This document shows positions 8,958 to 56,733 of a stretch of 64,000 nt of DNA, piece after piece. A program made the position numbers and the translations under genes. The notes below the pieces were generated by a model, which searched no databases, was not told the DNA's origin, and saw only the letters and a list, made by a program, of their open reading frames with translations. Positions within the stretch are counted from its first letter, which is position 1. Each line of letters begins with the position of its first letter. The stretch is from the sequence record NC_052657.1; one strand, 5' to 3'. This stretch comes from Escherichia phage muut.

Positions 8958-9388
8958 ATAAATTACTTCAGTGTTACCACAAAGTGACGAACTGCTTTTC
9001 GTGCAGCAGAAGCCAGAGGCTTAGCATACTTAAGTTCATCTTTTTCCATTATAAATTCTCTTTTAAATGAAAATGCAGGACTTATTGGCATTGCCTGCGC
9101 AAGCCCTCAAGGGGAACATAGGTTTTTGTATATTTAACGACCAGGATAACCATAAACCCGTCATCATTCACATTCAAGAGGTACACCATAAAACTGCCGG
9201 GGTCTTAAAACTATAATGATTCGCAAATCATTAATCAGACAGTTCGATGGCTCCTCGATTTTAGCTCACACTAAGGCAGTGAATCTCCAATAAACTAAAA
9301 AATCACTTAAAAAGAACCGCTAGAGTTTGAAGGAGAAAACCATGAGCGAAAAGAGAAATTTTCTCTAGCGATTCCATTTAAATAATCT

Positions 9389-9463
9389 TGGAGCGAGTAA
9401 CAGGACTTGAACCTGCACCTGGAGGGTGGAAACCTCATATGCTACCATTAACACTATACCCGC
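9389..9463 (-). tRNA. tRNA-Gly (anticodon UCC)
   Basis: 75 nt; anticodon loop TTTCCAC, T arm GCAGG-TTCAAGT-CCTGT, acceptor GCGGGTA/TACTCGC with one G-U, CCA. Confidence 0.6.
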
Positions 9464-9518
9464 TTAACAATATTACTCTAACATATTATTAGCCCCTTTG
9501 TCAAGAGGCTTTTAATAT

Positions 9519-9842
9519 TTATTTTAAAATAGTAGATGCACCACGTCTGTTTAGATATGCAACCGTAAAGCTCAAATCACCTATTTCTTCAGGTTCCCAC
9601 TGACCTTCTAAGCCATAACAAGAACAATGATATGCGTGTACTTCATAAAACAAAGATGTTTTCATATCATAGAAATAAACGTGAGATTCGCCTTCATAAT
9701 ATGCACAATCATAAGTGGCAGAAAGAATTACAATGTTATCCTTATCTAACTCTACTTCATAATATCTTTCAACATCTTCAATATCATCAAAACCATCGAA
9801 AACATTGATATTAAAATATTTCTCTAACTCTTTTTCTGTCAC
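9519..9842 (-). CDS. hypothetical protein (about 107 aa) embedded in tRNA array
   Basis: ORF between tRNA-Gly and tRNA-Thr; probable GTG start with AGGGGG RBS. Confidence 0.45.
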   Translation of the reverse strand: MTEKELEKYFNINVFDGFDDIEDVERYYEVELDKDNIVILSATYDCAYYEGESHVYFYDMKTSLFYEVHAYHCSCYGLEGQWEPEEIGDLSFTVAYLNRRGASTILK

Positions 9843-9865
9843 ATACACCCCCTTTAGAGTTAAAT

Positions 9866-9940
9866 TGGTGCTCCCACAAGGACTCGAACCTTGATAAGTT
9901 GCTTACAAGGCAACCGTAATAGCCGTTATACGATAGGAGC
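9866..9940 (-). tRNA. tRNA-Thr (anticodon UGU)
   Basis: 75 nt; anticodon arm GTTGC-CTTGTAA-GCAAC, T arm CAAGG-TTCGAGT-CCTTG, acceptor 7 bp with one G-U, CCA. Confidence 0.65.
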
Positions 9941-10019
9941 AAAATATTTGCTTGGTAGGATTTGATACCTACAATTCTAGAAAATTCTAGAGGTTTCTAT
10001 TAACTCTACAAGCACTATT

Positions 10020-10104
10020 TGGCGATGGATCAAGGATTTGAACCTTGCTAGAACTTTCGTTCACGGATTAACAGTCCGTCGCCCAACCACTAGGCCAATC
10101 CATC
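10020..10104 (-). tRNA. tRNA-Asn (anticodon GUU) with unusually long variable arm
   Basis: Exact acceptor GATGGAT/ATCCATC, CCA, discriminator G; anticodon arm ACGGA-CTGTTAA-TCCGT; 15-nt variable hairpin GAAC-GAAA-GTTC. Confidence 0.5.
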
Positions 10105-10111
10105 TTTAATT

Positions 10112-10198
10112 TGGTGCAGGTAGTTGGACTCGAACCAACGAAGCCCCGAAGGGCAGGAGATTTACAGTCTCCAGCAATTGCCGCTATGCGATACCTAC
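10112..10198 (-). tRNA. tRNA-Tyr (anticodon GUA)
   Basis: 87 nt type II; anticodon arm GGAGA-CTGTAAA-TCTCC, variable hairpin GCCC-TTCG-GGGC, T arm GTTGG-TTCGAGT-CCAAC, CCA. Confidence 0.7.
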
Positions 10199-10203
10199 GT
10201 GTT

Positions 10204-10278
10204 TGGTACATCGTGAAGGATTCGAACCTTCGACCTTGGAGTTAAAAGCCCTTGCTCTACCAACTAAGCTAACGATGT
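10204..10278 (-). tRNA. tRNA-Lys (anticodon UUU)
   Basis: 75 nt; exact acceptor ACATCGT/ACGATGT, D arm GCTT-AGTTGGTA-GAGC, loop CTTTTAA, T arm GAAGG-TTCGAAT-CCTTC; anticodon stem only 3 bp. Confidence 0.6.
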
Positions 10279-10406
10279 ATAAATTATCTTTAAAATAGCC
10301 AGTGTTTGCGGCACTGACTATGAGGTATCGGTAAAATGGCTGCCACCATCTGCCGAAAGTTTACTCTGCTAAAGTAAGTAGCCTCAACGCTACATTAAAG
10401 ATAACT

Positions 10407-10492
10407 TGGCGGTAGATGTAGGACTTGAACCTACACGCCGTTTCCGACGACAGTTTAGCAAACTGTTGTGGCTACCATTTCACCAATCTACC
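10407..10492 (-). tRNA. tRNA-Ser (anticodon GCU)
   Basis: 86 nt type II; exact acceptor GGTAGAT/ATCTACC, anticodon arm ACAGT-TTGCTAA-ACTGT, long variable arm, CCA. Confidence 0.7.
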
Positions 10493-10500
10493 GTTTTTAA

Positions 10501-10653
10501 TTATTCAAAACAACCGGAATCTTTTTGTTCTGCTTTTACCATACGAATATTTTTACCATCTTCAGATTGTTGAAGATTAGAATACTCATAAACAACTTTA
10601 TTATTTACAATCTTAACTCCGGTAACAACCTGTCCAATAGTTTTATAATTCAT
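10501..10653 (-). CDS. hypothetical protein (50 aa)
   Basis: Start moved to internal ATG (AGGAG RBS) because longer track ORF overlaps tRNA-Ser(UGA). Confidence 0.4.
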   Translation of the reverse strand: MNYKTIGQVVTGVKIVNNKVVYEYSNLQQSEDGKNIRMVKAEQKDSGCFE

Positions 10654-10671
10654 AAAGCTCCTAGTTGAATT

Positions 10672-10761
10672 TGGAGGAAGATAATGGAGTCGAACCATCA
10701 CCGTATCACTACAATGGGCCAGGGTTCAAACCTGGTTGCGCACCGCTGCGCCCTACCTTCC
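10672..10761 (-). tRNA. tRNA-Ser (anticodon UGA)
   Basis: 90 nt type II; acceptor GGAAGGT/ATCTTCC with one G-U, anticodon arm CCAGG-TTTGAAC-CCTGG, T arm GATGG-TTCGACT-CCATT, CCA. Confidence 0.65.
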
Positions 10762-10824
10762 CGTTATCATACTTTAAATCTAACATAAAACTATCTTGCT
10801 TGTCAAGCAGTTTTTAAAACTTTT

Positions 10825-10906
10825 TGGCCGGGGTGACAGGATTCGAACCTGCATACTCCAATTACTCGGTTAACGCCTGATTAGAAGTCAGGTGAGATAC
10901 ACCCCG
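10825..10906 (-). tRNA. tRNA-Arg-like (anticodon UCU), non-canonical arm order
   Basis: Exact acceptor CGGGGTG/CACCCCG, CCA, T arm GCAGG-TTCGAAT-CCTGT; UCU hairpin sits right after U8-A9 and a D-loop-like segment follows it. Confidence 0.4.
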
Positions 10907-10978
10907 TTTTCACAGTAACTATAACAAAAAACTAAGTAAATGTCAAGATATTTTTACTAAAAATATTATTTAAATTGA

Positions 10979-11084
10979 AGCCTAGTTATGGAATCGAACC
11001 ATATTTCGTATTTAGTTAGACAAAGCGGTCTAACATATTTTTCAGGCTTTGATGGCCTCGGAATTACCAAATACCCTACTAGGC
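10979..11084 (-). ncRNA. tRNA-like element, about 105 nt, with large insertion
   Basis: Exact acceptor GCCTAGT/ACTAGGC and T arm TATGG-TTCGATT-CCATA, no CCA; inner hairpins AGGC-CATCAAA-GCCT and GTTAGAC-CGCTTT-GTCTAAC. Confidence 0.3.
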
Positions 11085-11086
11085 GT

Positions 11087-11171
11087 TGGTGCAAGTGGAG
11101 GGATTCGAACCCTCAAGCATTTAAGCGTTGCGTTTTAAGCACAATGTGTATCACCAATTCCACCACACTTG
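11087..11171 (-). tRNA. tRNA-Leu (anticodon UAA)
   Basis: 85 nt type II; exact acceptor GCAAGTG/CACTTGC, anticodon arm TTGTG-CTTAAAA-CGCAA, T arm GAGGG-TTCGAAT-CCCTC, CCA. Confidence 0.65.
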
Positions 11172-11286
11172 CATATAGGAGATGCATAGCACCTCCTTTT
11201 AAATGGTGGTTCCCCAGGGTTACAATCCCTGCCCTCGACACTTATGAGGTGTGCGCTCTCGTCAGTGAGCTATGGAACCTTGAATA

Positions 11287-12025: not shown

Positions 12026-13759
12026 TTAGTCAACCTGGATGGTTCCCATAGTACGAAGAACCTCTACATCAACACGGTTGCGGATATCAGTAAATGTTTC
12101 ATCACGTCCTTCTACTTGTGGTGTAATAACCGTACCATCTCTGAAGATAACTTGTAACTCATTGTCTTCATCTTGGATATCTTTAAAAGAAAGATTATCC
12201 ACAAGAGAAAGTTTACCATTTGTATCCTTAACAACCTTAATAAAACCTTTTGCAGAGCGTTTACCAGGATCAGTTTTAGGCTCCTTACTTACCAAAATTT
12301 CGTGTTCACCGATGATACTACCTGTTGCTTTAACAGCAAAACCAAAAGTATCTCGTGTATTGAACTGATAAGTATAACTACCAACACCAAATACAATATT
12401 GGAAGCTGCAAAACCTTTCTTCTTCAGTCGGCGTAAGATCTCGTGTTCTCGTTCAACAGTAATAGAATCACCATAAATCATACCGATGTGCTGATCAAGA
12501 ACCTTGTAGCCTTTTCGGTTGATAGTACCACCAAACACTTCCCAAAGGATTTGAATAGAACCTACTGCTTCACAATAAGGAATCTCATAAGTTTCATCAA
12601 TACAATCAGCAACACTGCAATCCTGAAGAACATTGTAATACTTATTAACATCAGCCAAATGAACTACTTCAGTGGCTGTAGCAATACCATTATTTAAAAG
12701 GTCTTCATAGTTATCAAAAGATTCAACATTGTATCCTGCAACAACTTTAACCGGATCTCCTGAGTCTGGACGAATAACAAGACGACCATTTCGTGACATA
12801 ATGGACTCTTTCAATTCTACCAGAATGCGAGTCAAGACAGCCCAGTAATCATAAGAATCTGCTACATATGAACAAAAACCTTCTGGAACAATTTCTTCAA
12901 TATAGCGGCGAAGAAACTCTTTCTCTGCTACATAACGAAGCCCATCAACATCATCTTTAAGATGTGGGAAATGTTTCTTCAGATCTTCAACAATAGCTCC
13001 AATGTTAGTCGTTGCTACTGAATGTTCTGTTGCCGGAATAGAACCTGCAACAAACTGATCATAATCAATACCATAATAATCATGCACAGTTTCAATAGCC
13101 AGAATATTATCTGTTCCTGTGAAAGATGCCAAATGAGCGATACCACTCTTATAACCATCTTCGACATTACTTAAACCACGTAGGCTAAAATCATGACACT
13201 GGAAGTTAACGTGATCAATATTATCACACGTTGCCATCGCATATGCCATAGCAATACGCTTATACTGAAAAGCTGCTGTAGCATTAGTCATTGTCTTCCA
13301 AGTTTCATCTGACAATAGTGTTTCCACATAATTAGTTAACCAAAAGAATTTTTCTAAAGTATTATGCACAGTAAACACAGGAACACCAATAGGACACAAA
13401 ACACCTTCTGGCAGAGATCGAACTTCCAGCGGAAGATAACCTAAATCGTGCAATTCTCCCCAACATTCAGCAGAAGGAGCAGAAGCACCTAATGCATTTT
13501 TAGACATACGATAAAATTTATTTACTGCTGCACTACGAGACATTTTAAAGAAGCTGTCCCACATAGTTACAAGGGCATCGGTGACTGCTCGACGAATACC
13601 TAAAACAATCACACCACGTGCTTCACGATCTGCATAGTGTGCAAAGTTTTTATCATTACGAGGAGTTAAATTAGAGAAAATGAGTTTTGTATTTTGGTTG
13701 TACATCTGCTTGTGACCAGGCTTATACCAATCAGTAGCAAAAGGTGCAAAAATATTCAT
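12026..13759 (-). CDS. nadV: nicotinamide phosphoribosyltransferase-family enzyme (NadV/Nampt-like; possibly Namat of NARP1)
   Basis: 577 aa; resembles NadV/Nampt by eye and co-operonic with a Prs-like gene; family membership inferred, not searched. Confidence 0.65.
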   Translation of the reverse strand: MNIFAPFATDWYKPGHKQMYNQNTKLIFSNLTPRNDKNFAHYADREARGVIVLGIRRAVTDALVTMWDSFFKMSRSAAVNKFYRMSKNALGASAPSAECWGELHDLGYLPLEVRSLPEGVLCPIGVPVFTVHNTLEKFFWLTNYVETLLSDETWKTMTNATAAFQYKRIAMAYAMATCDNIDHVNFQCHDFSLRGLSNVEDGYKSGIAHLASFTGTDNILAIETVHDYYGIDYDQFVAGSIPATEHSVATTNIGAIVEDLKKHFPHLKDDVDGLRYVAEKEFLRRYIEEIVPEGFCSYVADSYDYWAVLTRILVELKESIMSRNGRLVIRPDSGDPVKVVAGYNVESFDNYEDLLNNGIATATEVVHLADVNKYYNVLQDCSVADCIDETYEIPYCEAVGSIQILWEVFGGTINRKGYKVLDQHIGMIYGDSITVEREHEILRRLKKKGFAASNIVFGVGSYTYQFNTRDTFGFAVKATGSIIGEHEILVSKEPKTDPGKRSAKGFIKVVKDTNGKLSLVDNLSFKDIQDEDNELQVIFRDGTVITPQVEGRDETFTDIRNRVDVEVLRTMGTIQVD

Positions 13760-13830
13760 AGTTATGTCTCCTTGTTTGTTAATGTGGGAGTATCTTACTA
13801 GGCATACTCCCTATTATCAACACTTATTAT

Positions 13831-14724
13831 TTAAAAATTCCACACGTATGGAGATACAATTTGTTGTTGCAAATCTGACTGATTCTTAACAAGAACACCG
13901 GAATCTTCTTGGATGTTATCTTCCCACACATTAAGAGAATGAATGCAGTCAAAGTGCTCACTTAACTCTTTAAGACCTTTAGAAAAGATACCGTGTGTAA
14001 CATATAACTCAATCTTACCTGCGTTACGAGCACGTAGCACTTTAGCCAATTCAATAAAAGTTCTACCGCCGTCACAGATATCATCTACGATCATCAGGTT
14101 ACGCTTATTGAAATCCTGTACAGAAATGTCTGTACGAACAATAGCACCTGTCGCAGTATCTCTAACCTTCTCTGCACAGAACACATCTAAAGACATTTTC
14201 TTAGATAATTTAAATATTTTCTTAAGAGCACCACCATCAGGACTAACAAGAGCAAAATTCTCCATACGTAACTTCCACTTTAAAGTTTCGTAAGCAATCT
14301 CTTCTTGAGGTATTACACAGAGTCTGTCAAACACCGCTGGAGTAACATCACTATGTGGATCAGCAACGATAACACGTGAGAAATTTAATGAATTAATTAT
14401 AGAAGCAAATGCTTTAACTCCGAATGCTTCCCCAGGTTCACACACTCTGTCTTGTCGTGCATATGGCACATACAACATGAGCAAATCAACACAATATGGT
14501 TTATGATATAGCATATTGTCCAATGCATTCTTAGTCATAACCAAAGTCATCAAGTCTTTAGCAGATCTTACTTCTAAAGAGAGTAAGATTCTGTCTGTAG
14601 CATGATTGAAACCTGATAGATTCGTATCTAGTTGAACATGTTGTTCTCCACCAGAGAATGTAAAGACTTTAACGTCTACATCAGTAACATAACAGTTAAC
14701 ACCATGTAGAATACTAACTTTCAT
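13831..14724 (-). CDS. ribose-phosphate pyrophosphokinase-family enzyme (Prs-like; possibly Adps of NARP1)
   Basis: 297 aa; PRPP-binding loop MIVDDICDGGRTF typical of Prs / type I phosphoribosyltransferases; directly upstream of nadV-like gene. Confidence 0.6.
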   Translation of the reverse strand: MKVSILHGVNCYVTDVDVKVFTFSGGEQHVQLDTNLSGFNHATDRILLSLEVRSAKDLMTLVMTKNALDNMLYHKPYCVDLLMLYVPYARQDRVCEPGEAFGVKAFASIINSLNFSRVIVADPHSDVTPAVFDRLCVIPQEEIAYETLKWKLRMENFALVSPDGGALKKIFKLSKKMSLDVFCAEKVRDTATGAIVRTDISVQDFNKRNLMIVDDICDGGRTFIELAKVLRARNAGKIELYVTHGIFSKGLKELSEHFDCIHSLNVWEDNIQEDSGVLVKNQSDLQQQIVSPYVWNF

Positions 14725-14763
14725 TGTTTATCTCCTTAGTTAAGTTAGGACTTTATGTTCTCT

Positions 14764-14792
14764 ACTCTACATACAGATAGATCTAAAGTCAA
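14764..14792 (-). promoter_or_regulatory. sigma70-like promoter for prs-nadV operon
   Basis: On minus strand TTGACT-17-TAGAGT about 40 nt upstream of prs-like start. Confidence 0.45.
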
Positions 14793-14970
14793 TAGATATT
14801 TATTATTTAATTAATAATAAAATTAATAAAGAATCTATTGTTAGTATAGAGCATGTATGTTAGTATTATAAACATAACATAGTGCTATATGTAGACTACT
14901 CAGTTGTCTGTTAGATCATGTATCACAGGATTAGATAACACCCCCTCGCTGCGCTCGGCGTTTTTCGGGG

Positions 14971-14994
14971 GTTAGGGTAGCATACTTTTTTGCG
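14971..14994 (+). promoter_or_regulatory. conserved upstream element TTAGGGTAGCAT-N2-TTTTTT-N-CG (copy 1)
   Basis: Near-identical 24-nt motif recurs in opposite orientation at 55907-55930; both precede the first gene of an operon. Confidence 0.35.
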
Positions 14995-15133
14995 TTTGTC
15001 AACACCTTTTTAGATTATTTTTAAGTACAACCTAAACCTCCTAAAAACGATTGTAACGAGTTTTACTGTGAGGTAAGGTGATTGCATATCTTAAAGGCCA
15101 TTAGCTCGTTACAGAGCCGTATAGGAGGGAATA

Positions 15134-15502
15134 ATGAGGGTCACACGCTACGTTAGAAGTGAAACAATAGATGGAAGCATAATGTATGCTTTCTACGATG
15201 ATAAAACTTTTTGTTCTGCATTCTATGAAGAAGACTTGTCTACGGAATGGCAACAAATCATCTTCTTACTTGACATTTTGAAAAGAAGAGATAACTTTGA
15301 AGGTATTGAGTGGACAGCGGAAAGCAAAGTTATCGTTGCAGGTTTAAGCAAACATGAATTGCTTGACTTAGACTGTAAACTTTGTAATTATCAATTCTCA
15401 AAACGTTTACCATTAGAAAGACAGTTAGGAGTTGAGATTCATGTTGACTTGGGCGATGGAGTATCCTATACTTTCAACAATCATAGTGCTGACATTAATT
15501 AG
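15134..15502 (+). CDS. hypothetical protein (122 aa)
   Basis: First ORF of plus-strand operon; RBS AGGAGGG; no motif recognised. Confidence 0.45.
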   Translation: MRVTRYVRSETIDGSIMYAFYDDKTFCSAFYEEDLSTEWQQIIFLLDILKRRDNFEGIEWTAESKVIVAGLSKHELLDLDCKLCNYQFSKRLPLERQLGVEIHVDLGDGVSYTFNNHSADIN

Positions 15503-15568
15503 TGGAATCACAAAATGCGTCACAAGCATTTGCGATTGTTTAACACATTTTAAACAAAGGAAAAATAA

Positions 15569-15766
15569 ATGAATCAAACTATGCAAACAATCTATAGAGT
15601 CATCCTTGGTGAGTTCCATGTTGTTAAGTCAACATTGAATTATGAAGAAGCTAAAGAGAATTTCTTGCTTTGGGTTGAAGAATTCTCTGAAGTTGAAAAG
15701 GTGAGTTACAATTGTGTAACTTTAACTGCTGATCACGTACCTGTATTGGAGTTTATTAAGAAATGA
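15569..15766 (+). CDS. hypothetical protein (65 aa)
   Basis: Track ORF, co-oriented and tightly packed. Confidence 0.4.
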   Translation: MNQTMQTIYRVILGEFHVVKSTLNYEEAKENFLLWVEEFSEVEKVSYNCVTLTADHVPVLEFIKK

Positions 15767-16002
15767 AAAAAGAAATTTTAACTGATGTAACATATTCTTG
15801 TATTAGCAAAGGCGGTTTATATCGTGTAGTTGGCTTTCCTAAACCAGCGGGTGTATCTAAAGTATTTGATCCTGTTGTGATCTACGAAGATGTAAGGACT
15901 GGTCAACAGTATTGGCGATTCCAGCAAGATTTCTTACACCGCATGGAGGTTGTTGATGGCGAAAACACCGAAGAAGCGATCCGTAACAAAGCGCGCATCT
16001 AA
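15763..16002 (+). CDS. hypothetical protein (79 aa)
   Basis: Track ORF; start overlaps upstream stop. Confidence 0.4.
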   Translation: MKKEILTDVTYSCISKGGLYRVVGFPKPAGVSKVFDPVVIYEDVRTGQQYWRFQQDFLHRMEVVDGENTEEAIRNKARI

Positions 16003-16291
16003 AGATGGGGCGGCAAAAGCCGCTCCTAAGAAACAAAAATTTGACACAGAGGCTTTTGTCTTTGATACTCCAATAGAAAAGATAGAAGAAGCTCTTGCTA
16101 AATTTGAAGCACGTGATGCAGATCCTATGGCAGATCCTTTCACAGAAGATGAATTGTACTGGTTTGGCTGGTGGGTTTTGAATCTACCAGAAGCTAAAAA
16201 ACGAGGAATGAAGTCAGTTCCTATTTGTGCAAAAGAATCGGCTGTGTTAGGTTTATACGAGAAACCTAAAAGAAGGAGCAAAAAGAAATGA
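15956..16291 (+). CDS. lysine-rich basic protein (111 aa)
   Basis: Start reset to ATG 15956 (GGAGG RBS); K/A-rich N- and C-termini suggest nucleic-acid binding. Confidence 0.4.
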   Translation: MAKTPKKRSVTKRASKDGAAKAAPKKQKFDTEAFVFDTPIEKIEEALAKFEARDADPMADPFTEDELYWFGWWVLNLPEAKKRGMKSVPICAKESAVLGLYEKPKRRSKKK

Positions 16292-16566
16292 GAAAAACTT
16301 ATCTGAAGTGTTTGTCTGTTGTGCAAAATGAATGGTATTCAGGTTTGCTGACAGCAGGTAAGAAATATGAAGTGCTCAATAAACCAGGGGCAAGATTTTC
16401 ATTAATTAAGAACGACGAAGGCACTGAAATGCTTATTTCAGTTGCAGATTCTGTGTATGGTACTTTTGAGTTTGTCTATGAACATGCACCAATTATTCTT
16501 GAATACAGCGGTACAAACAAACCTTACACAGCTTTAGATGTGATCAACAACAAAAGGAATAAGTAA
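16288..16566 (+). CDS. hypothetical protein (92 aa)
   Basis: Track ORF, start overlaps upstream stop. Confidence 0.45.
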   Translation: MRKTYLKCLSVVQNEWYSGLLTAGKKYEVLNKPGARFSLIKNDEGTEMLISVADSVYGTFEFVYEHAPIILEYSGTNKPYTALDVINNKRNK

Positions 16567-16760
16567 TGTTTCTTATTTATTCAGGTAAAGCCAAATACAT
16601 GCAAGGTGTAAAGCGTGTAGAAGTAGCAGATACTGTAACTATAGGAAAATCCTTTATTCTTTATTTGTTTTATATCAATGGAGAAAGATTTGCTGTTTCT
16701 AAGAAGTTGGTAGATAATGGTAAAACTTGGAAAGAAGAGAAACAGGAAGGGGGTAGATAG
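16566..16760 (+). CDS. hypothetical protein (64 aa)
   Basis: Track ORF, start overlaps upstream stop. Confidence 0.4.
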   Translation: MFLIYSGKAKYMQGVKRVEVADTVTIGKSFILYLFYINGERFAVSKKLVDNGKTWKEEKQEGGR

Positions 16761-17101
16761 TGGCTAAAATTCTTTGGTTAGACGATTTAAGAGATCCTAA
16801 AGATTATGGTTATGAGGATGCCATTTGGTTAAAATCTTTTGAGGATTGGTTATCTTTTGTTTCAGATGAAGATAATTTCAATAATATCTCAGAGATACAC
16901 TTCGATAATGATCTTGGAGAAGATCAAGAAGGATATCATGCGTTCTTAGACGTAGAATGTATGTTGTACGCGGGTGAATGGGATGCTCTTAAAACTATCT
17001 ATGTTCATACATCAAATCCTTCTGCTGCTGGTAAATATATGTTAGCTAAGGAAAATTTTATTTCATCCTATGGTGTTGAAATTAAACGTGTTAACTATTA
17101 A
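16760..17101 (+). CDS. hypothetical protein (113 aa)
   Basis: Track ORF, start overlaps upstream stop. Confidence 0.45.
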   Translation: MAKILWLDDLRDPKDYGYEDAIWLKSFEDWLSFVSDEDNFNNISEIHFDNDLGEDQEGYHAFLDVECMLYAGEWDALKTIYVHTSNPSAAGKYMLAKENFISSYGVEIKRVNY

Positions 17102-20264: not shown

Positions 20265-21366
20265 TCCTACATTGTATGGTAAAACTTCTACAGGTAAAAT
20301 TAAACAGTGGTCAGTCTATACCGAAGGTAGTGTTGTAACTGTTGCTCATGGTCAATTAGGTGGAAAGATTACTAGCAAATCTTATACAGCAGAACCTAAA
20401 AATATTGGTCGCTCAAATGAAACAACAGCAGAAGAACAAGCTGAAATAGAAGCTCTTGCCAAATGGACAAAACAACTTAAGAATGGGTATTATAAAACAA
20501 AAGAGGAAGCTGAAAACCATGTTCCTTCCACACCCATGAAATGTCAGGATTATAAAGATTATGCTGATCGTGTTTTGTTCCCAGGTTATGCACAATATAA
20601 ATTGAATGGTCTACGTTCAATGATTAACATGCAAGGTGAATGTTTATCTAAAGCTGGGGAAGTATATAAACTTCCACCTCACTGGAAAGAAATTCCAACC
20701 TTCATTAAAGAAGTAGTTGGTCATCCTCTTGATGGTGAAGTTTTTGCTGGTCTGGGTGTCCTTAGCCTTCAACAAATTAATAGTGCGTGGAAAAAGCACA
20801 ATGCTAACACACCGCTTCTTAAATATTATGTATACGATGTTCCTGTGGCATCTGTACCATTTGAGAAGAGGGTTCAAGTTTTGGCTGCTCTAAAAGAAGT
20901 TGTTGAAGATAAAGGTTTAGATGAACTTATTTGTGTAGTACATACAGAGTACATTGAAAACCAAGAACAGTTTGATGCTTTCTATGCAAAAGCTCTACAT
21001 GAGAAAGCGGAAGGTGTGGTGTATCGTAACGCACAAGGTGTTTACGAATTCGATAAACGTTCTTATGATGTTATTAAACGTAAACCACGTCAGACGCTTG
21101 AAGTTAAAGTGGTAAGTGCAAAGCGTGATAAAAATGGTGACGGGGTATTGACAGGCGAGATGGAAAATGGTAAAGTAGTCGAATTCCTGATGCGTAAGGA
21201 TTCAGATGAAACCATTAACTATCGTAAAGCAGAAAATGCCGAAATGTTAATTGGTAAATTTGTTGAGATTGAGTATGAAGAGTTTTCCGATGGTGGAATA
21301 CCTACGAAACCAACAGGTGTCCGTTTACGGGAAATGGTGGAGGGAACATGGGAGCCAAGAGAGTAG
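20251..21366 (+). CDS. ATP-dependent polynucleotide (DNA) ligase
   Basis: Start reset to ATG 20251 (GGAGG RBS); motifs KLNG, LDGEV, EGVVYRN, VIKRK and OB-like C-terminus. Confidence 0.5.
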   Translation: MKQTNPTLYGKTSTGKIKQWSVYTEGSVVTVAHGQLGGKITSKSYTAEPKNIGRSNETTAEEQAEIEALAKWTKQLKNGYYKTKEEAENHVPSTPMKCQDYKDYADRVLFPGYAQYKLNGLRSMINMQGECLSKAGEVYKLPPHWKEIPTFIKEVVGHPLDGEVFAGLGVLSLQQINSAWKKHNANTPLLKYYVYDVPVASVPFEKRVQVLAALKEVVEDKGLDELICVVHTEYIENQEQFDAFYAKALHEKAEGVVYRNAQGVYEFDKRSYDVIKRKPRQTLEVKVVSAKRDKNGDGVLTGEMENGKVVEFLMRKDSDETINYRKAENAEMLIGKFVEIEYEEFSDGGIPTKPTGVRLREMVEGTWEPRE

Positions 21367-21977
21367 ACTTTGTAGGTAAGAAATGCGGTTGTTATACTGT
21401 CTTAGAAGAGATTGAAAGGGACAAACATGGCAAAAGACGTTTTACTTGTTCTTGTGATTGTGGTAATATTTGCACGGTAACTATGGAAACACTTAGGAAG
21501 AATAGAAGTTCTTATTGTTCCAAGTGTAGACCGAAAACAACACAAACAGGAGCATACAAATCGTGGGAAGCTATGTTAGGGAGATGCTATAACAAAAACA
21601 ATACTCACTTTGAATACTACGGTGGTCGTGGTATTAAGGTTTGTGATGCTTGGAGAAATTCATTCTCTGCATTCTTTGAGGATATGGGAGATAGACCTAA
21701 AGGCTTATCTCTTGACAGAATAGACTCGGAAAAAGATTACAGTAAAGAAAATTGTCGCTGGGCTACAAGGTCTGTCCAGTCATACAATACACGAAAACAG
21801 AAAAATAACACTTCTGGTAAAACAGGTGTTGTGTGGAGCGAGAAAGAAAAAAGATGGATTGCTCGTATATCCTATCAAGGAAAAGATATCCGTCTTGGAG
21901 CATTTATTGATATTGAAGATGCTATATCAGCAAGACAGGAAGCTGAAGTATTGTATTTTGGCAAGATTAAAACATAA
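21348..21977 (+). CDS. HNH-family homing endonuclease-like protein
   Basis: Cys cluster (KCGCY...CSCDCG) and segment YGGRGIKVCDAW...SLDRID...NCRWAT seen in phage HNH annotations; overlaps ligase end. Confidence 0.45.
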   Translation: MGAKRVDFVGKKCGCYTVLEEIERDKHGKRRFTCSCDCGNICTVTMETLRKNRSSYCSKCRPKTTQTGAYKSWEAMLGRCYNKNNTHFEYYGGRGIKVCDAWRNSFSAFFEDMGDRPKGLSLDRIDSEKDYSKENCRWATRSVQSYNTRKQKNNTSGKTGVVWSEKEKRWIARISYQGKDIRLGAFIDIEDAISARQEAEVLYFGKIKT

Positions 21978-21988
21978 AGGAGGTTGCA

Positions 21989-22180
21989 ATGAGCATTGAA
22001 GTTATTTTGATTCTTGTGTTGCTTTCTATTGTTGCTTGTGGTATAATTGTCGCATCAACTTTCCCTCACCCAACATGGTGGCAGAAGGCTAGTCTGATGA
22101 TTGTCTACGGTGCAGCAGGTGTACAAATGGGTGCAGTTGTTGTATATCTGGTGGAATTTACAAAACAATATTTTAAATAA
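21989..22180 (+). CDS. small membrane protein (63 aa)
   Basis: Two predicted TM helices. Confidence 0.4.
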   Translation: MSIEVILILVLLSIVACGIIVASTFPHPTWWQKASLMIVYGAAGVQMGAVVVYLVEFTKQYFK

Positions 22181-34726: not shown

Positions 34727-34867
34727 AATGGATGATGTAAGTATTTGTCCTATCTGCGGCGGCACTGGGAATTTTATTGTTAGTATGGAACAATTTATTC
34801 CTTGTTGGAATTGTAACGGCTTAGGTTTCGTTCATACAGAAGAAAAAGAAGAAGAGGAAGATAGTGG
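34727..34867 (+). CDS. small zinc-ribbon protein (46 aa)
   Basis: Sub-cutoff ORF with GAGGAG RBS; CPICGG...CWNCNG. Confidence 0.4.
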
Positions 34868-49512: not shown

Positions 49513-50046
49513 ATGGGTTTTGATGACATGTTATTATATGAGGAGGCTTGTGTGAAAGAAGCTATGGCTTTACCAGTTTTATCTATTGATATTACAACAG
49601 TAGACACTTTTTCAGATTGTGAAACGTGTGGATCGTATTCGTCTATTGTACATGAAGTTAGTGGGGATTTAGGCACTTACGAAGATGGAGATTATGCAAG
49701 TTGTTTAGGTGATAATCGAGATGGTGAAGTGGCGAATGTTGCAAACTGGATTGCTTCTAAGTTAAAAGAAAGAAATCGTCCGTTCCCTAATCTTCTTACA
49801 CCAGAAGCTATGCTTAAAGCTGAACAAGAGATGTATGATTATGGTTATAAAGTAGATTATGACTATAATGATCCTAAATATAAAAAATTGAGTGACAAGT
49901 ATTGGGAACTAGCTAATGCTTATGATAAATACTACTCTACAGAAAACATTGTTAAATTGTTTTTAGATTTTGGAGTAGAAATTAATTGGGATTTCGAAGA
50001 GGAAGAGCGTTACGACGCATCTTCTTGGGAGGACGAGGGTGAATGA
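49513..50046 (+). CDS. hypothetical acidic protein
   Basis: Start reset to ATG 49513 (GGAGGA RBS). Confidence 0.4.
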   Translation: MGFDDMLLYEEACVKEAMALPVLSIDITTVDTFSDCETCGSYSSIVHEVSGDLGTYEDGDYASCLGDNRDGEVANVANWIASKLKERNRPFPNLLTPEAMLKAEQEMYDYGYKVDYDYNDPKYKKLSDKYWELANAYDKYYSTENIVKLFLDFGVEINWDFEEEERYDASSWEDEGE

Positions 50047-50783
50047 TAGAACGAAAACCCTTACCAGATAGAGATTACTTGTTATCAAGGTTTAGTGTGG
50101 AGAATGGTCGTCTTGTTTGGAAACCTAAACCTTCTACAACAAAAGAGAACAAAAGGTGGAATAGCAGATACGCAGGGAAGATTGCAGGGACTATTGATAA
50201 AGCTGGTTACTCTCATGTCAAAATAGATGGTATTGTATACTTGGAGCACAGAGTTTGTTTTAAAATGTATCATAATTACTGTCCAGATGTTATAGACCAT
50301 GATGACGGCAATAAACTTAATAATGCGGAAAGTAATTTATTGGATAGTAACTATTTATTAAATAATAACAATAGACACGTGGATGGGTTAGAAGGTATTT
50401 ATGAAAAGGATGGTGTTTTTCTTTGGGTTATAAACTACAACCAAGAAACTTTCTCTGTTTCAGGTTTCAAAACTAAAGAGGAAGCTATTGTAGCTAGAGC
50501 TTTAGCAAAACAAGAAATTTTGAAAGGATCTTATATCAAAAAAGAAAAGAAGCGTATAGATAACACTTCAGGATTAAGCTGTGTGTTTGTGGCAACAAGA
50601 GAGAGAACATTCTTTTTCAAGTTTGTGTTTGACAAGATCACGTATTGCAAATATGGTTTCAACGATCCAGAGAGATGTGCTATAGCTCTGGAGAAACTAA
50701 GATTGAAGGTGATGAAAGAAAAATATAAACCTGCAAATAAAAGCATTTGCGAAAAATATAAGGAGGAGATTTATGCCGCGTAG
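50043..50783 (+). CDS. HNH homing endonuclease with AP2-like DNA-binding domain
   Basis: HNH motif VIDHDDGNKLNNAESNL; downstream SGFKTKEEAIVARALA AP2-like segment. Confidence 0.65.
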   Translation: MIERKPLPDRDYLLSRFSVENGRLVWKPKPSTTKENKRWNSRYAGKIAGTIDKAGYSHVKIDGIVYLEHRVCFKMYHNYCPDVIDHDDGNKLNNAESNLLDSNYLLNNNNRHVDGLEGIYEKDGVFLWVINYNQETFSVSGFKTKEEAIVARALAKQEILKGSYIKKEKKRIDNTSGLSCVFVATRERTFFFKFVFDKITYCKYGFNDPERCAIALEKLRLKVMKEKYKPANKSICEKYKEEIYAA

Positions 50784-51588
50784 AGTCATATTCATAACTG
50801 GTGCAGGACTATCTGTGGATAGCGGTATCCCAGCTTTTAGAACAGATACTTCTTCAGGGAAGGCGTTATGGTCTTCTTATGATCTTTTTGAGGTCTGTGA
50901 CATTTTCAACTTCCGTGACGGTTATCAGCAAGAACAAGGTGTTCTTGATGCTATGGGTGGTTTAGATGCAGAAGGATATAACCTCTACCGTAAAACTCAC
51001 GACTTTTACAATAAACGTCGCGTGGAATTAGAGAAAGTTGACCCGAATCCAGCACATCTTCAGATTGGAGAATGGTTCAAAAAATATGGCCCAGAACGAA
51101 TTATTAACATTACTACTAACGTGGATGACCTCCTTGAACGAGCAGGAGTAGATAGGGAAGAAGTGCTACATGTGCACGGTTTTCTTCCTGAAATTACTTT
51201 TCAAAGAAAAGCTGGACAACCTACAATTGTAAAAGATGTTGGTTATCAAGCCATAGATGTAGATGACTACCATTATGTAAAACCTAATGTAATTTTCTTT
51301 GGGGAAGCTGCTCCACTTTACACGGATATGTATCATATTTTTGATACTTTGACCATGCAAGATTTGGTTGTTGTAGTAGGATGTTCAAACCAAGTTATCA
51401 ATTTTAATTGGGAATTATTCCCTGCACTTAATATGGGTACAAAAATGATCGTTGTTAACCCAGGAATTAATTACGAAGAAACTCTTCTTTACGAAGACAG
51501 AGGAGTTTTTGTTTATCGAGAAAAGGCCGCAGATGCTTTTAGCAATCCTGCTTTCATAAAAATGATAGAAGATCATTTGACTAAGTAA
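50773..51588 (+). CDS. Sir2-family NAD-dependent deacylase / ADP-ribosyltransferase
   Basis: NAD-binding signature GAGLSVDSGIPAFR near N-terminus; 271 aa. Confidence 0.7.
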   Translation: MPRRVIFITGAGLSVDSGIPAFRTDTSSGKALWSSYDLFEVCDIFNFRDGYQQEQGVLDAMGGLDAEGYNLYRKTHDFYNKRRVELEKVDPNPAHLQIGEWFKKYGPERIINITTNVDDLLERAGVDREEVLHVHGFLPEITFQRKAGQPTIVKDVGYQAIDVDDYHYVKPNVIFFGEAAPLYTDMYHIFDTLTMQDLVVVVGCSNQVINFNWELFPALNMGTKMIVVNPGINYEETLLYEDRGVFVYREKAADAFSNPAFIKMIEDHLTK

Positions 51589-55839: not shown

Positions 55840-55906
55840 TTTCTACTCCTCATAGATAAAATCTATTAAAAACCTGCTATCAATCGGTACAAACAGTTTT
55901 ACTTTT

Positions 55907-55930
55907 CGTAAAAAACATGCTACCCTAATC
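55907..55930 (-). promoter_or_regulatory. conserved upstream element TTAGGGTAGCAT-N2-TTTTTT-N-CG (copy 2)
   Basis: Reverse-complement match to motif at 14971-14994, with further downstream similarity. Confidence 0.35.
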
Positions 55931-56046
55931 TTATATACCGAGCGATAGCGAGGTAGAGAATATTCCATGTTATACATGGAAAGAGTATATGTAATGTTAC
56001 TAACTCTATAACTAACTATATACTCTTTATACCTTACTTACTACTC

Positions 56047-56556: not shown

Positions 56557-56733
56557 GTGTCAACATCTTTGTGTTAATTTTATCCACTGTTCACATTCTT
56601 CTTTTGTGTCGTACTCTACAGGCTTCCCTGTATCATTTCCACAACCATCTCCGAACGTAGCCCACCAGGAGAATAGAAAACAAGTTTCTCTTACTCTCCA
56701 CTTATTGGCATAGGGTACAACATAATAACTCAT
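56557..56733 (-). CDS. hypothetical protein (58 aa)
   Basis: Sub-cutoff ORF with AAGGA RBS; start overlaps upstream stop. Confidence 0.35.

What the first reader, a model, noticed from the sequence alone, without database searches (positions are those of the whole stretch)
14725..15133. AT-rich divergent intergenic region with short repeats and inverted repeats
The 409-nt region separating the leftward NAD-module operon from the rightward early operon contains TGTTAGTAT twice, a CCCCC...GGGGG inverted repeat and a 9-bp inverted repeat (TGTAACGAG / CTCGTTACA), plus promoter-like hexamers on both strands. This density of repeats could mark a bidirectional control region or a replication origin.
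Basis: seen in the sequence. Interest (0 to 1): 0.35.

Follow-up and report, generated by a model that had tools for sequence, protein, structure and literature searches.

The report
Phage early-promoter hub with conserved leader hairpin
The spacer is an ordinary two-way start region for host RNA polymerase in a phi92-like phage, and one of its promoters belongs to an undescribed three-copy 'promoter plus RNA hairpin' module shared across related phages and some bacterial mobile elements.

Summary
None behaves as an origin-type repeat.

- **What the window is:** a phi92-like myovirus (Justusliebigvirus). The 409-nt spacer separates the PRPP-synthetase/NAMPT/tRNA operon (leftward) from gp106A (rightward).
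- **Predicted promoters:** three sigma70-type promoters rank in the top 0.1% of the window. P_L2 (14792>14764, -) and P_R (14838>14866, +) lie back to back around a 35-nt pure A/T tract with UP-element geometry. P_L1 lies further out (15002>14974, -).
TGTTAGTAT is the extended -10 of P_R. The CCCCC/GGGGG repeat is not conserved. The 9-bp inverted repeat is the core of a strong 5'-UTR hairpin that buries the gp106A ribosome-binding site.
- **The new finding:** P_L1 is TTGACA-N17-TGC-TACCCT-AA followed by a 15-nt hairpin with an invariant tandem G.A/A.G loop. This module occurs exactly three times per genome, one copy antisense. It is conserved across five lineages of Stephanstirmvirinae and recurs in integrative, primase-encoding elements in bacterial contigs.
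- **Origin hypothesis:** the whole-genome GC-skew minimum sits here but follows gene orientation. I found no iterons and no DnaA-box enrichment, so there is no independent origin evidence.

All start sites and functions are predictions.

The parts
14764..14792 (-). P_L2: proximal leftward sigma70-type promoter TTGACT-N17-TAGAGT. The predicted start is about 14756-14758, some 33 nt upstream of the PRPP synthetase ATG.
   Evidence: Rank 28 of 91,345 scored sites. The -35 GTCAA is invariant in Justusliebigvirus, Tr1, the three Klebsiella phages and 05F01. The start site is inferred.
14796..14830 (.). A 35-nt pure A/T tract between the -35 elements of P_L2 and P_R. It is read as a shared UP-element-like tract.
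   Evidence: It is the longest A/T run in the window. The next three longest runs (2947, 9510, 10958) also lie 4-12 nt upstream of the -35 of top-ranked promoters. An A/T tract of variable sequence and length is present at this spot in all relatives compared. A 12-nt expansion occurs in phage inny and in L018.
14838..14866 (+). P_R: rightward promoter TTGTTA-N17-TGT-TAGTAT, predicted start about 14873. The two TGTTAGTAT copies are its -35-overlapping copy (14839-14847) and its extended -10 (14858-14866).
   Evidence: Rank 71. The same architecture is present in Tr1 (TTGTAA-N17-TGT-TAGTAT) but not in the Klebsiella phages or 05F01. TGTTAGTAT is also the extended -10 of the rank-6 promoter at 56563-56535.
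14894..14917 (.). Conserved block GACTACTCAGTTGTCTGTTAGATC. Its function is unknown. It lies in the leaders of both P_R and P_L1.
   Evidence: Conserved with 2 changes in Citrobacter phage Tr1 and absent from the Klebsiella phages. Unexplained.
14915..14942 (-). Region of the second, variable hairpin of the P_L1 leader RNA.
   Evidence: A second hairpin follows the GA hairpin in most copies, with covarying stems TTCATG/CATGAA, TTCCATG/CATGGAA, GTTTCAT/ATGAAAC and TGTTCCTG/CAGGAACA. It is weakest in this copy.
14944..14958 (-). Tandem-GA hairpin. On the minus strand it reads 5'-CC GA GC [GCA] GC GA GG-3', at about +9 to +23 of the predicted P_L1 transcript.
   Evidence: Across 10 distinct copies 84% of cells are paired against 74% in shuffles (1 of 500 shuffles reaches this). 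The covariation score is 0.41 against 0.21 (0 of 500). Slid registers give 27-49% paired. The G.A/A.G columns are invariant. The covariance model finds exactly 3 hits per genome.
14941..14971 (.). It corresponds to the C-rich discriminator of P_L1 plus the 3' flank of the GA hairpin.
   Evidence: The spacer between box A and box B differs in every relative and the C5/G5 arms are not kept. It is therefore incidental to this copy.
14974..15002 (-). P_L1: distal leftward promoter TTGACA-N17-TGC-TACCCT(AA), predicted start about 14966.
   Evidence: Rank 15 of 91,345. The -35 GTCAA is invariant in every relative compared, and the 12-mer ATGCTACCCTAA in all but 05F01, which carries TAATAT there. Of 58 independent GTATGCTACCCTAA instances in IMG/VR, 13 carry TTGAC at exactly the 17-bp-spacer offset, against 0.06 expected.
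15031..15139 (+). Long 5'-UTR hairpin of gp106A. CCUCCUA (15037-15043) pairs with the Shine-Dalgarno UAGGAGG (15122-15128).
   Evidence: -35 kcal/mol, z = -3.5, and 0 of 200 shuffles fold as well. It is specific to Justusliebigvirus, because relatives have a different, shorter leader. There is no covariation support.
55898..55953 (+). Second copy of the module in the window (c3): TTTACT-N17-TGC-TACCCT (55898-55926) plus the hairpin CC GA GC [GATA] GC GA GG (55938-55953). It is antisense to the surrounding minus-strand genes.
   Evidence: nhmmer E = 4e-15, covariance model 31.8 bits, promoter rank 148. The hairpin is the MFE structure on this strand (-9.5 kcal/mol, z = -2.4) against -4.9 on the complement. 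The orthologous antisense copy, with an intact TTGACT, is present in Phapecoctavirus nepoznato.

Best explanation
The spacer is the main divergent early-promoter region for the host sigma70 RNA polymerase in a phi92-like phage.

Two back-to-back promoters share a central pure-A/T tract placed like an UP element. P_L2 reads leftward to the PRPP synthetase / NAMPT / tRNA operon. P_R reads rightward to gp106A.

A third promoter, P_L1, lies about 210 bp further right and also fires leftward, so it faces P_R. Their predicted transcripts would overlap by about 90 nt.

P_L1 is a special module. It has a perfect -35, a 17-bp spacer, an extended -10 'TGC' and an invariant, G+C-rich -10 (TACCCT-AA). A few nucleotides after the start it has a 15-nt RNA hairpin built from two short stems around a tandem sheared G.A/A.G loop, capped by a GNA or GNNA loop. 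A second, variable hairpin follows.

The whole module occurs three times per genome. Two copies head long operons and one is antisense. I infer that it marks transcripts for a common fate through its 5' RNA structure. The most likely fates are binding of a phage or host factor that controls elongation (antitermination) or RNA stability.

On the rightward side, a long 5'-UTR hairpin occludes the gp106A ribosome-binding site.

Shown here: sequence architecture, ranks, conservation, covariation and copy number. Inferred: start sites, RNA (not DNA) as the folded species, and the function of the hairpin.
For: Identity and annotation: the window is 98.8% identical to phi92, and nothing is annotated in the spacer except ribosome-binding sites.

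Promoter scan: P_L1, P_L2 and P_R rank 15, 28 and 71 of 91,345 sites. Predicted promoters are co-oriented with the genes in 23-24 of the top 25 and 42 of the top 50. 16 of the top 25 have TG at -15/-14.

Conservation: the two GTCAA (-35) blocks are invariant across all compared relatives and box B is kept in all but 05F01, while the flanks diverge.

Promoter geometry, tested independently in IMG/VR: TTGAC is found at the 17-bp offset in 13 of 58 instances of the 14-mer, against 0.06 expected. There are 71 stretches for TACCCT against 9 and 1 for the matched -10 variants.

A/T tract: its geometry is repeated at three other strong promoters.

Hairpin: covariation and slide controls, strand asymmetry in c3, and the hairpin appears in the MFE fold of 11 of 15 copies.

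Copy number: exactly 3 per genome.

Orthologous positions and orientations are kept in Tr1, Sichuanvirus and Phapecoctavirus.

Published predictions for rV5 give the same general promoter picture (PMC3606486).
Against: - No transcription start has been mapped for this phage group. I found no transcriptome study.
- TACCCT matches only 3 of 6 positions of the -10 consensus.
- The position weights in my scan are approximate values recalled from published compilations.
- Nearest-neighbour folding does not single out the c1 hairpin (z about +1 on both strands).
- The covariation rests on 10 related sequences, and most of the stem is invariant.
- P_R is not conserved in the Klebsiella phages or in 05F01. 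These have a strong promoter next to the first rightward gene instead.
- The antisense copy c3 serves no gene, so 'mRNA leader' cannot be the whole story.
Confidence: 0.7

Rival explanations
1. The module encodes short non-coding RNAs in their own right, acting as antisense or trans-acting regulators or as primer RNAs, and is not an mRNA leader. The promoter would exist to make the structured 70-130-nt 5' RNA.
For: Copy c3 is antisense, has no ORF to serve, and is conserved in that orientation in a second genus. The same module heads 400-700 nt without a credible ORF in two integrative elements. The two-hairpin architecture recurs.
Against: No intrinsic terminator follows any copy. Copies c1 and c2 run directly into genes in the same direction. 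There is no Rfam family match.
Confidence: 0.2
2. The spacer is a replication origin of the T4 oriF or T7 type. A promoter (P_L1) fires into a downstream A/T-rich unwinding element (14796-14830), and the transcript forms an R-loop that primes DNA synthesis.
For: The whole-genome cumulative GC-skew minimum falls here. A promoter is followed 135-170 nt later by a pure A/T tract that is kept, with variable sequence, in all relatives compared. The box A sequence type GCGAAGC is a known very stable DNA mini-hairpin reported at phage origins (own knowledge). The module also occurs in primase-encoding elements.
Against: The skew follows gene orientation, and its strength follows gene class rather than direction from this point. 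The same conclusion was published for rV5. The A/T tract has UP-element geometry shared with other promoters. Copies c2 and c3 have no comparable A/T tract. There are no iterons and no DnaA-box enrichment. GTTCCTG repeats are genome-wide.
Confidence: 0.08
3. Box A and box B act at the DNA level. Either they form an operator for a phage repressor or activator overlapping the -10 and the early transcribed region, or the purine-rich strand forms a single-stranded DNA hairpin used as a priming or loading signal.
For: Box B is conserved far beyond what sigma70 needs: it is invariant across genera, while the -10 of P_L2 varies. The hairpin sequence type is exceptionally stable as DNA (own knowledge).
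Against: The stems covary while the two G.A positions on one strand stay fixed. In L048 entirely different stems keep the GA/AG core. This fits a folded single strand better than a duplex operator. The single-stranded DNA version cannot be separated from the RNA version with these tools.
Confidence: 0.1
4. The conserved core is read on the plus strand, either as a rightward promoter with TAGCAT as its -10 or as a small terminator (CGCTG-CGCT-CGGCG followed by TTTTT).
For: The terminator scan flags 14947-14960 on the plus strand. TAGCAT fits TAnnAT. Copy c3 points the same way as its neighbouring genes in this reading.
Against: There is no -35 on that strand (rank 843). The T-run and the small stem are absent in Tr1 and the Klebsiella phages. 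Copy c2 is antisense in this reading. The TTGAC enrichment at a 17-bp spacing exists only for the minus-strand reading.
Confidence: 0.03

Closest known systems
Divergent sigma70 promoters with extended -10 regions in rV5-like phages (Kropinski et al. 2013, PMC3606486)
   Same: Host-type promoters are spread over the genome, about a third have extended -10 regions, bidirectional promoters lie between divergent gene blocks, and skew changes are tied to transcription orientation.
   Different: That work predicts generic promoters. It does not describe a TACCCT-type -10, a leader hairpin, or a three-copy module.
Rfam GA-cis RNA (RF02987)
   Same: The 3' hairpin of the model (CcGAgcGaAagcGAgG, two stems around a GA/GA internal loop) matches box A almost base for base on the same strand.
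   Different: The score is 21.3 bits against a gathering score of 34.7. The 5' half of the model aligns only across a 61-nt insertion that lies upstream of the predicted start. The other copy tested with Rfam, c2, gives no hit. It is not a member.
Lambda nut boxB and HK022 put elements (processive antitermination; own knowledge)
   Same: A short hairpin with a GNRA-like loop, or a pair of hairpins, sits just downstream of early promoters at the head of long operons.
   Different: No boxA sequence is present. The stem carries a tandem G.A loop that those elements lack. No N-like protein was identified. One copy is antisense. This is a functional analogy only and was not tested.
T4 oriF / ori(34) and the T7 primary origin (promoter plus downstream unwinding element; own knowledge)
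   Same: At copy c1 a promoter is followed by an A/T-rich tract. One copy of the module (c3) is a promoter without a gene, as at T4 ori(34).
   Different: The A/T tract is placed as an UP element for two other promoters. Copies c2 and c3 lack such a tract. There are no replication data.
Lambda N-leader type RBS-sequestering hairpin (own knowledge)
   Same: The gp106A 5' UTR folds into a long stem that pairs an anti-SD with the SD.
   Different: It is specific to Justusliebigvirus, has no covariation support, and cleavage by RNase III is untested.

Membership tests
sigma70 promoter with extended -10 | -35 close to TTGACA, a 17 +/- 1 bp spacer, and a -10 of the form TAnnnT | tested here: met
   P_L1 is TTGACA-17-TACCCT, P_L2 is TTGACT-17-TAGAGT and P_R is TTGTTA-17-TAGTAT. 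They rank 15, 28 and 71 of 91,345 sites.
sigma70 promoter with extended -10 | TG at -15/-14 | tested here: met
   Present in P_L1 (TGC) and P_R (TGT), absent in P_L2. 16 of the top 25 sites in the window have it.
sigma70 promoter with extended -10 | Transcription starts 6-8 nt downstream of the -10, made by sigma70 holoenzyme | not testable with these tools
   I found no transcriptome or in vitro data.
UP element | An A/T-rich tract at about -40 to -60 of a strong promoter | tested here: met
   14796-14830 begins 4 nt upstream of the P_L2 -35 and ends 8 nt upstream of the P_R -35. The same geometry is seen at 2947, 9510 and 10958. The effect on promoter strength was not tested.
Rfam GA-cis (RF02987) | A score at or above the curated gathering threshold over the whole model | tested here: not met
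   21.3 bits against 34.7. Only the 3' hairpin aligns credibly.
Replication origin | Iterons or clustered initiator (DnaA) boxes | tested here: not met
   No tandem repeats. DnaA-like boxes number 209 against 216 expected, with one 1-mismatch site in the spacer.
Replication origin | A skew inflection not explained by gene orientation | tested here: not met
   The global minimum is here, but every inflection coincides with a strand switch. Coding-strand skew by block is 0.09, 0.14, 0.13, 0.17 and 0.09, which follows gene class.
Replication origin | Initiation of DNA synthesis at the site | not testable with these tools
   This needs marker-frequency or 2-D gel data.
Intrinsic terminator | A G+C-rich stem directly followed by a U-run, conserved in relatives | tested here: not met
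   The single scan hit (14947-14960, +) loses both its stem and its T-run in Tr1 and the Klebsiella phages.
nut/put-type antitermination element | A hairpin or hairpins just downstream of an early promoter | tested here: met
   The hairpin begins 4-10 nt after the predicted start in the copies where it folds.
nut/put-type antitermination element | A boxA sequence or N-like protein, and read-through of terminators | not tested
   No boxA-like sequence was seen by eye in the 5' tails. No protein search was done.

The most novel reading that the evidence does not exclude
The TACCCT-promoter / tandem-GA-hairpin module is the recognition target of a dedicated trans-acting factor of Stephanstirmvirinae phages, for example a processive antiterminator or an RNA-binding switch. 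That factor would co-ordinate two long operons and one antisense transcript. Small integrative, primase-encoding elements of Enterobacteriaceae would have copied the module so that their own replication operon responds to infection by these lytic phages, making it a satellite-helper signal.
Probability: 0.15. Interest if true: 0.7.

Novelty: new variant of a known kind. Interest (0 to 1): 0.42.

Why it matters
The promoter hub itself is expected for this phage group.

The module is of more interest. It is an undescribed, sharply conserved cis element that ties a fixed, unusual -10 sequence to a structured 5' RNA with a tandem G.A motif. It occurs in a fixed number of copies, including a conserved antisense one.

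It gives a concrete handle on temporal gene control in phi92/phAPEC8-type phages, which are widely used in phage-therapy collections and whose transcription programme is unstudied.

Its presence in integrative primase-bearing elements suggests a possible link between lytic myoviruses and satellites.

The over-representation of TTGAC-N17-TGCTACCCTAA across unrelated viral contigs suggests a wider promoter class that standard consensus scans under-score.

Tried and rejected
1. Plus-strand reading of the conserved core, as a promoter with TAGCAT or as a terminator. Rejected on geometry, conservation and the orientation of copy c2.
2. CCCCC/GGGGG as a functional stem. It is not conserved, and its 5' arm lies upstream of the predicted start.
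3. TGTTAGTAT as a regulator-binding repeat. It is an extended -10, the same 9-mer is the -10 of the promoter at 56563, and the occurrence at 34778 is in coding sequence with no promoter context.
4. Small ORFs in the spacer. Only 22-25-aa ORFs lie wholly inside it and one 51-aa TTG-start ORF overlaps its edge; none is conserved.
5. The phage ALITA record ending at 14839 as a physical genome end. The record is simply linearised inside the A/T tract.
6. The 'repeat_region' annotated in phage inny. It is the 12-nt expansion of the A/T tract.
7. GTTCCTG as an iteron. It has 31 sites spread over the genome.
8. DnaA boxes and tandem repeats. None found.
9. Membership of Rfam GA-cis. The score is below threshold.
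10. A search for the integrative-element module in complete E. coli genomes. No match.
11. Literature search for TACCCTAA promoters. Only irrelevant hits.
12. Polymorphism mapping among four close relatives. There are too few variable sites to be informative.

Full report
**What the window is.** The window is a phi92-like myovirus (Justusliebigvirus, Stephanstirmvirinae). Positions 13000-17000 are 98.8% identical to phi92 and 95-99% identical to about 54 other records. The finding covers exactly the spacer between the PRPP synthetase gene (13831-14724, minus strand, phi92 gp107) and the gp106A orthologue (15134-15502, plus strand). The phi92 record annotates only ribosome-binding sites there. 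No credible ORF lies in the spacer. No Rfam family reaches threshold and no tRNA is present.

**The observation.**
- TGTTAGTAT lies at 14839 and 14858. The window has 4 copies against 0.9 expected.
- CCCCC-N21-GGGGG lies at 14941-14971 and is unique in the window, against 0.03 expected.
- TGTAACGAG / CTCGTTACA lie at 15052-15060 and 15105-15113.
- Overall GC is only slightly low, 33.5% against 37.1%. The spacer does hold the longest pure A/T run of the window, 35 nt at 14796-14830.

**Promoters.** I scored -35, spacer, TG and -10 over both strands of the whole window. The position weights are approximate values recalled from published E. coli compilations.
- The best sites are TTGACA-N17/18-(TGn)-TAnnnT.
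- 23-24 of the top 25 and 42 of the top 50 point the same way as the local genes. This shows the scan is picking real signals.
- Three sites in the spacer are in the top 0.1% of 91,345: P_L1 (minus, 15002>14974, TTGACA-17-TGC-TACCCT, rank 15), P_L2 (minus, 14792>14764, TTGACT-17-TAGAGT, rank 28) and P_R (plus, 14838>14866, TTGTTA-17-TGT-TAGTAT, rank 71).
- The second TGTTAGTAT is therefore the extended -10 of P_R and the first overlaps its -35. The same 9-mer is the extended -10 of the rank-6 promoter at 56563.
- The A/T tract fills the 45 bp between the -35 elements of P_L2 and P_R. The next three longest A/T runs of the window also sit 4-12 nt upstream of the -35 of top-ranked promoters. The tract is therefore best read as an UP-element-like feature shared by two back-to-back promoters.
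- The rV5 genome paper describes the same general layout for a related phage: sigma70-type promoters, a third of them with extended -10 regions, and bidirectional promoters between divergent blocks (PMC3606486).

**Comparative footprint.** I used the flanking PRPP synthetase gene as an anchor to fetch the orthologous spacers of Citrobacter phage Tr1, three Klebsiella phages (Sichuanvirus type) and Klebsiella phage 05F01.
- Most of the spacer is unalignable. Two GTCAA blocks are invariant, and they are the -35 elements of P_L2 and P_L1. A core CCTCGCTnCGCTCGG ... TTAGGGTAGCAT is nearly invariant.
- The arms of the CCCCC/GGGGG repeat are not kept.
- Relatives have a strong rightward promoter (TTGACA-N17-TATCAT, -TACCAT or -TAAGAT) next to the first rightward gene. 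That segment is missing from the window. P_R, which is conserved only in Tr1, is the best rightward candidate here.
- On that reading P_R (start about 14873) and P_L1 (start about 14966) face each other, with roughly 90 nt of overlap. This is an inference.

**The module.** The conserved core is not unique to this spacer.
- A profile search finds a second copy in the window, c3, at 55890-55958. It finds exactly three copies in the complete genome of phage arall, which is 98% identical to the window.
- Read on the minus strand of the spacer, every copy is TTGAC(a/t)-N17-TG(c/g)-TACCCT-AA. After 10-14 nt comes CC GA GC [loop] GC GA GG.
- Two tests fix the reading strand. First, among 58 distinct IMG/VR instances found with the 14-mer GTATGCTACCCTAA alone, 13 carry TTGAC at exactly the offset that gives a 17-bp spacer, against 0.06 expected. 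Only 2 carry it at any other offset. Second, the pattern TTGAC-N14/15-ATGCTACCCTAA gives 71 stretches in at least 25 unrelated flank families. Matched variants with GGG or CGC inside the -10 give 9 and 1.
- The TACCCT-type extended -10 promoter is therefore a real and recurrent phage promoter variant. In the phi92 group its sequence is held far more tightly than the -10 of P_L2.

**The hairpin.** Across 10 distinct copies the outer and inner pairs change in step. The outer pair C-G becomes A-T in copy c2, in Phapecoctavirus and in 05F01. An inner G-C becomes A-T in 05F01.
- The two G.A/A.G columns never vary. Loops seen across all copies are GAA, GCA, GATA, GAAT, GTAA and GAAA.
- 84% of cells are paired against 74% in shuffles (1 of 500 shuffles reaches this). 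The covariation score is 0.41 against 0.21 (0 of 500). Slid registers give 27-49%.
- An unrelated 92-kb contig (L048) has different stems around the same GA/AG core after the same promoter.
- For c3 the hairpin is the MFE fold on the purine-rich strand (z = -2.4) but not on the complement.
- The hairpin appears in the MFE fold of 11 of 15 copies, starting 4-10 nt from the predicted 5' end. A second, variable hairpin with a covarying stem follows.
- A covariance model of the hairpin hits exactly three places per genome, at 31.8-34.6 bits, with nothing else up to E = 10. In 0.8 Mb of other viral loci it gives significant hits only in phi92-, Phapecoctavirus- and Sichuanvirus-type contigs.
- The 3' hairpin of Rfam GA-cis has the same architecture and almost the same sequence. 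The family threshold is not met, however, and the rest of that alignment is implausible.
- Caveats: nearest-neighbour folding does not favour the c1 triloop version, and the sequences are few and related.

**Positions of the copies.**
- c1 heads the leftward block: PRPP synthetase, NAMPT, 15 tRNAs, then terminase and head genes.
- c2 lies upstream of the arall_75 (phi92 gp208) gene, near the start of the 39-kb replication block. Its position and orientation are kept in Tr1, Sichuanvirus and Phapecoctavirus.
- c3 is antisense to its neighbours and has no ORF to serve. The orthologous antisense copy, with an intact TTGACT, is present in Phapecoctavirus nepoznato.
- A module that is conserved where it cannot be expressing a protein argues that the RNA, or the act of transcription, is the functional product.

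**Outside phages.** A scan of bacterial genome contigs gave mostly chance hits. Six of them carry TTGAC at promoter spacing as well. Three are small contigs with the same sequence as Phapecoctavirus copies over the stretches compared. Two lie in large contigs, a 505-kb Scandinavium contig and a 243-kb uncultured-bacterium contig.
- There the module sits in an integrative element. The Scandinavium element has an integrase, a primase/helicase-type protein with DUF5906, a weak endonuclease VII match and an HTH regulator. The other element has a primase, an endonuclease VII match and a DNA invertase.
- In both, the module heads several hundred nucleotides without a credible ORF before the primase operon.
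- In the phage collection, the only relatives of that segment that contain the module are the c2 copies of Stephanstirmvirinae. There is no match in complete E. coli genomes.

**The origin hypothesis.**
- The whole-genome cumulative GC skew has its global minimum at this spacer. However, every inflection coincides with a strand switch. Coding-strand skew is 0.09 in the two late structural blocks and 0.13-0.17 in the other three, which does not fit a replication direction from here.
- There are no tandem iterons, no DnaA-box enrichment and no clustering of GTTCCTG.
- The A/T tract is accounted for as an UP element, and copies c2 and c3 lack one.
- An R-loop-type origin (promoter plus unwinding element) cannot be excluded without replication data. 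I put it at about 8%.

**The rightward leader.** Positions 15031-15139 fold into a long hairpin of -35 kcal/mol (z = -3.5, 0 of 200 shuffles as good). It is specific to Justusliebigvirus and has no covariation support. Some polymorphisms in phage inny weaken its outer pairs.

**Verdict.** The finding is real. In its broad sense, a divergent promoter region, it is ordinary and already expected for this phage group. The repeats are by-products of promoter elements and a UTR hairpin, and the origin reading is unsupported. The part worth following up is the P_L1 module: an undescribed, tightly conserved promoter-plus-tandem-GA-hairpin unit present three times per genome, once antisense, and shared with integrative primase-encoding elements.

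Noticed in passing
window 55898-55953 (+); arall MN850584 58903-58973 (outside the window): Two further copies of the promoter-plus-GA-hairpin module. The one in the window is antisense to the surrounding early-type small genes.
   Followed up: yes
L179 (Scandinavium sp. MAG contig NZ_DATBBJ010000073.1) about 5335-5395 (-); L186 (CBCTJT010000005.1) about 7350-7400 (-): The same module heads a long ORF-free leader in integrative elements. The Scandinavium element encodes an integrase, a primase/helicase-type protein (DUF5906), a weak endonuclease VII match and an HTH protein. The other element encodes a primase, an endonuclease VII match and a DNA invertase. The layout is satellite-like.
   Followed up: partly
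IMG/VR loci L104-L156 (about 30 contigs of 42-44 kb, many from sample 3300045988): A family of about 43-kb viral contigs carries TTGACCC...ATGCTACCCTAA followed by a conserved CCCCCTACACCACCCAAGGGTCCACC leader. It has the same -10 module and a different downstream element. The phage type was not identified.
   Followed up: no
window 8242-11279 (-): A cluster of 15 tRNA genes lies downstream of the NAD-salvage genes in the leftward block. Several top-ranked predicted promoters lie inside it (10946, 10806, 9504).
   Followed up: no
phi92 NC_023693 49736-49886 (about window 13017-13167): The phi92 record annotates a 151-nt 'hypothetical tRNA' inside the NAMPT coding sequence. ARAGORN finds no tRNA there in the window, so it is probably a spurious feature.
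   Followed up: partly
window 14797: The A/T tract carries a 12-nt expansion (ATTTATTATTTA) in phage inny and in an IMG/VR relative. This changes the distance between the two back-to-back -35 elements from 45 to 57 bp.
   Followed up: partly
window 50036-51283, 21329-22164 and 8069-8165: These segments do not align with phage arall in an otherwise 97-99% identical genome. They are local replacements or indels, and the first lies beside the convergent strand switch.
   Followed up: no
GenBank MG065639, MG065645, MG065656, MG065689: Four records named 'Campylobacter phage' with host C. jejuni are about 98% identical to phi92-like coliphages over this region. The host label looks doubtful.
   Followed up: no
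records OZ035770 vs MN850632 (alia) and OZ035773 vs MT932211 (VEcB): The OZ records of the same phages are 1,433 and 1,183 bp longer, which may reflect direct terminal repeats. By position the record ends would fall just upstream of the terminase gene (about window 5.5-7 kb), not at the finding.
   Followed up: no
window 15444-15472 (+): A strong predicted promoter (TTGACT-17-TATACT, rank 18) lies inside the 3' end of gp106A. It would serve the downstream small genes independently of the spacer.
   Followed up: no
window 14894-14917: The block GACTACTCAGTTGTCTGTTAGATC is conserved between Justusliebigvirus and Tr1. Short similar strings (GATCTAACAG, ACTAACAAT) occur in the leaders of the integrative elements. 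It is unexplained.
   Followed up: partly
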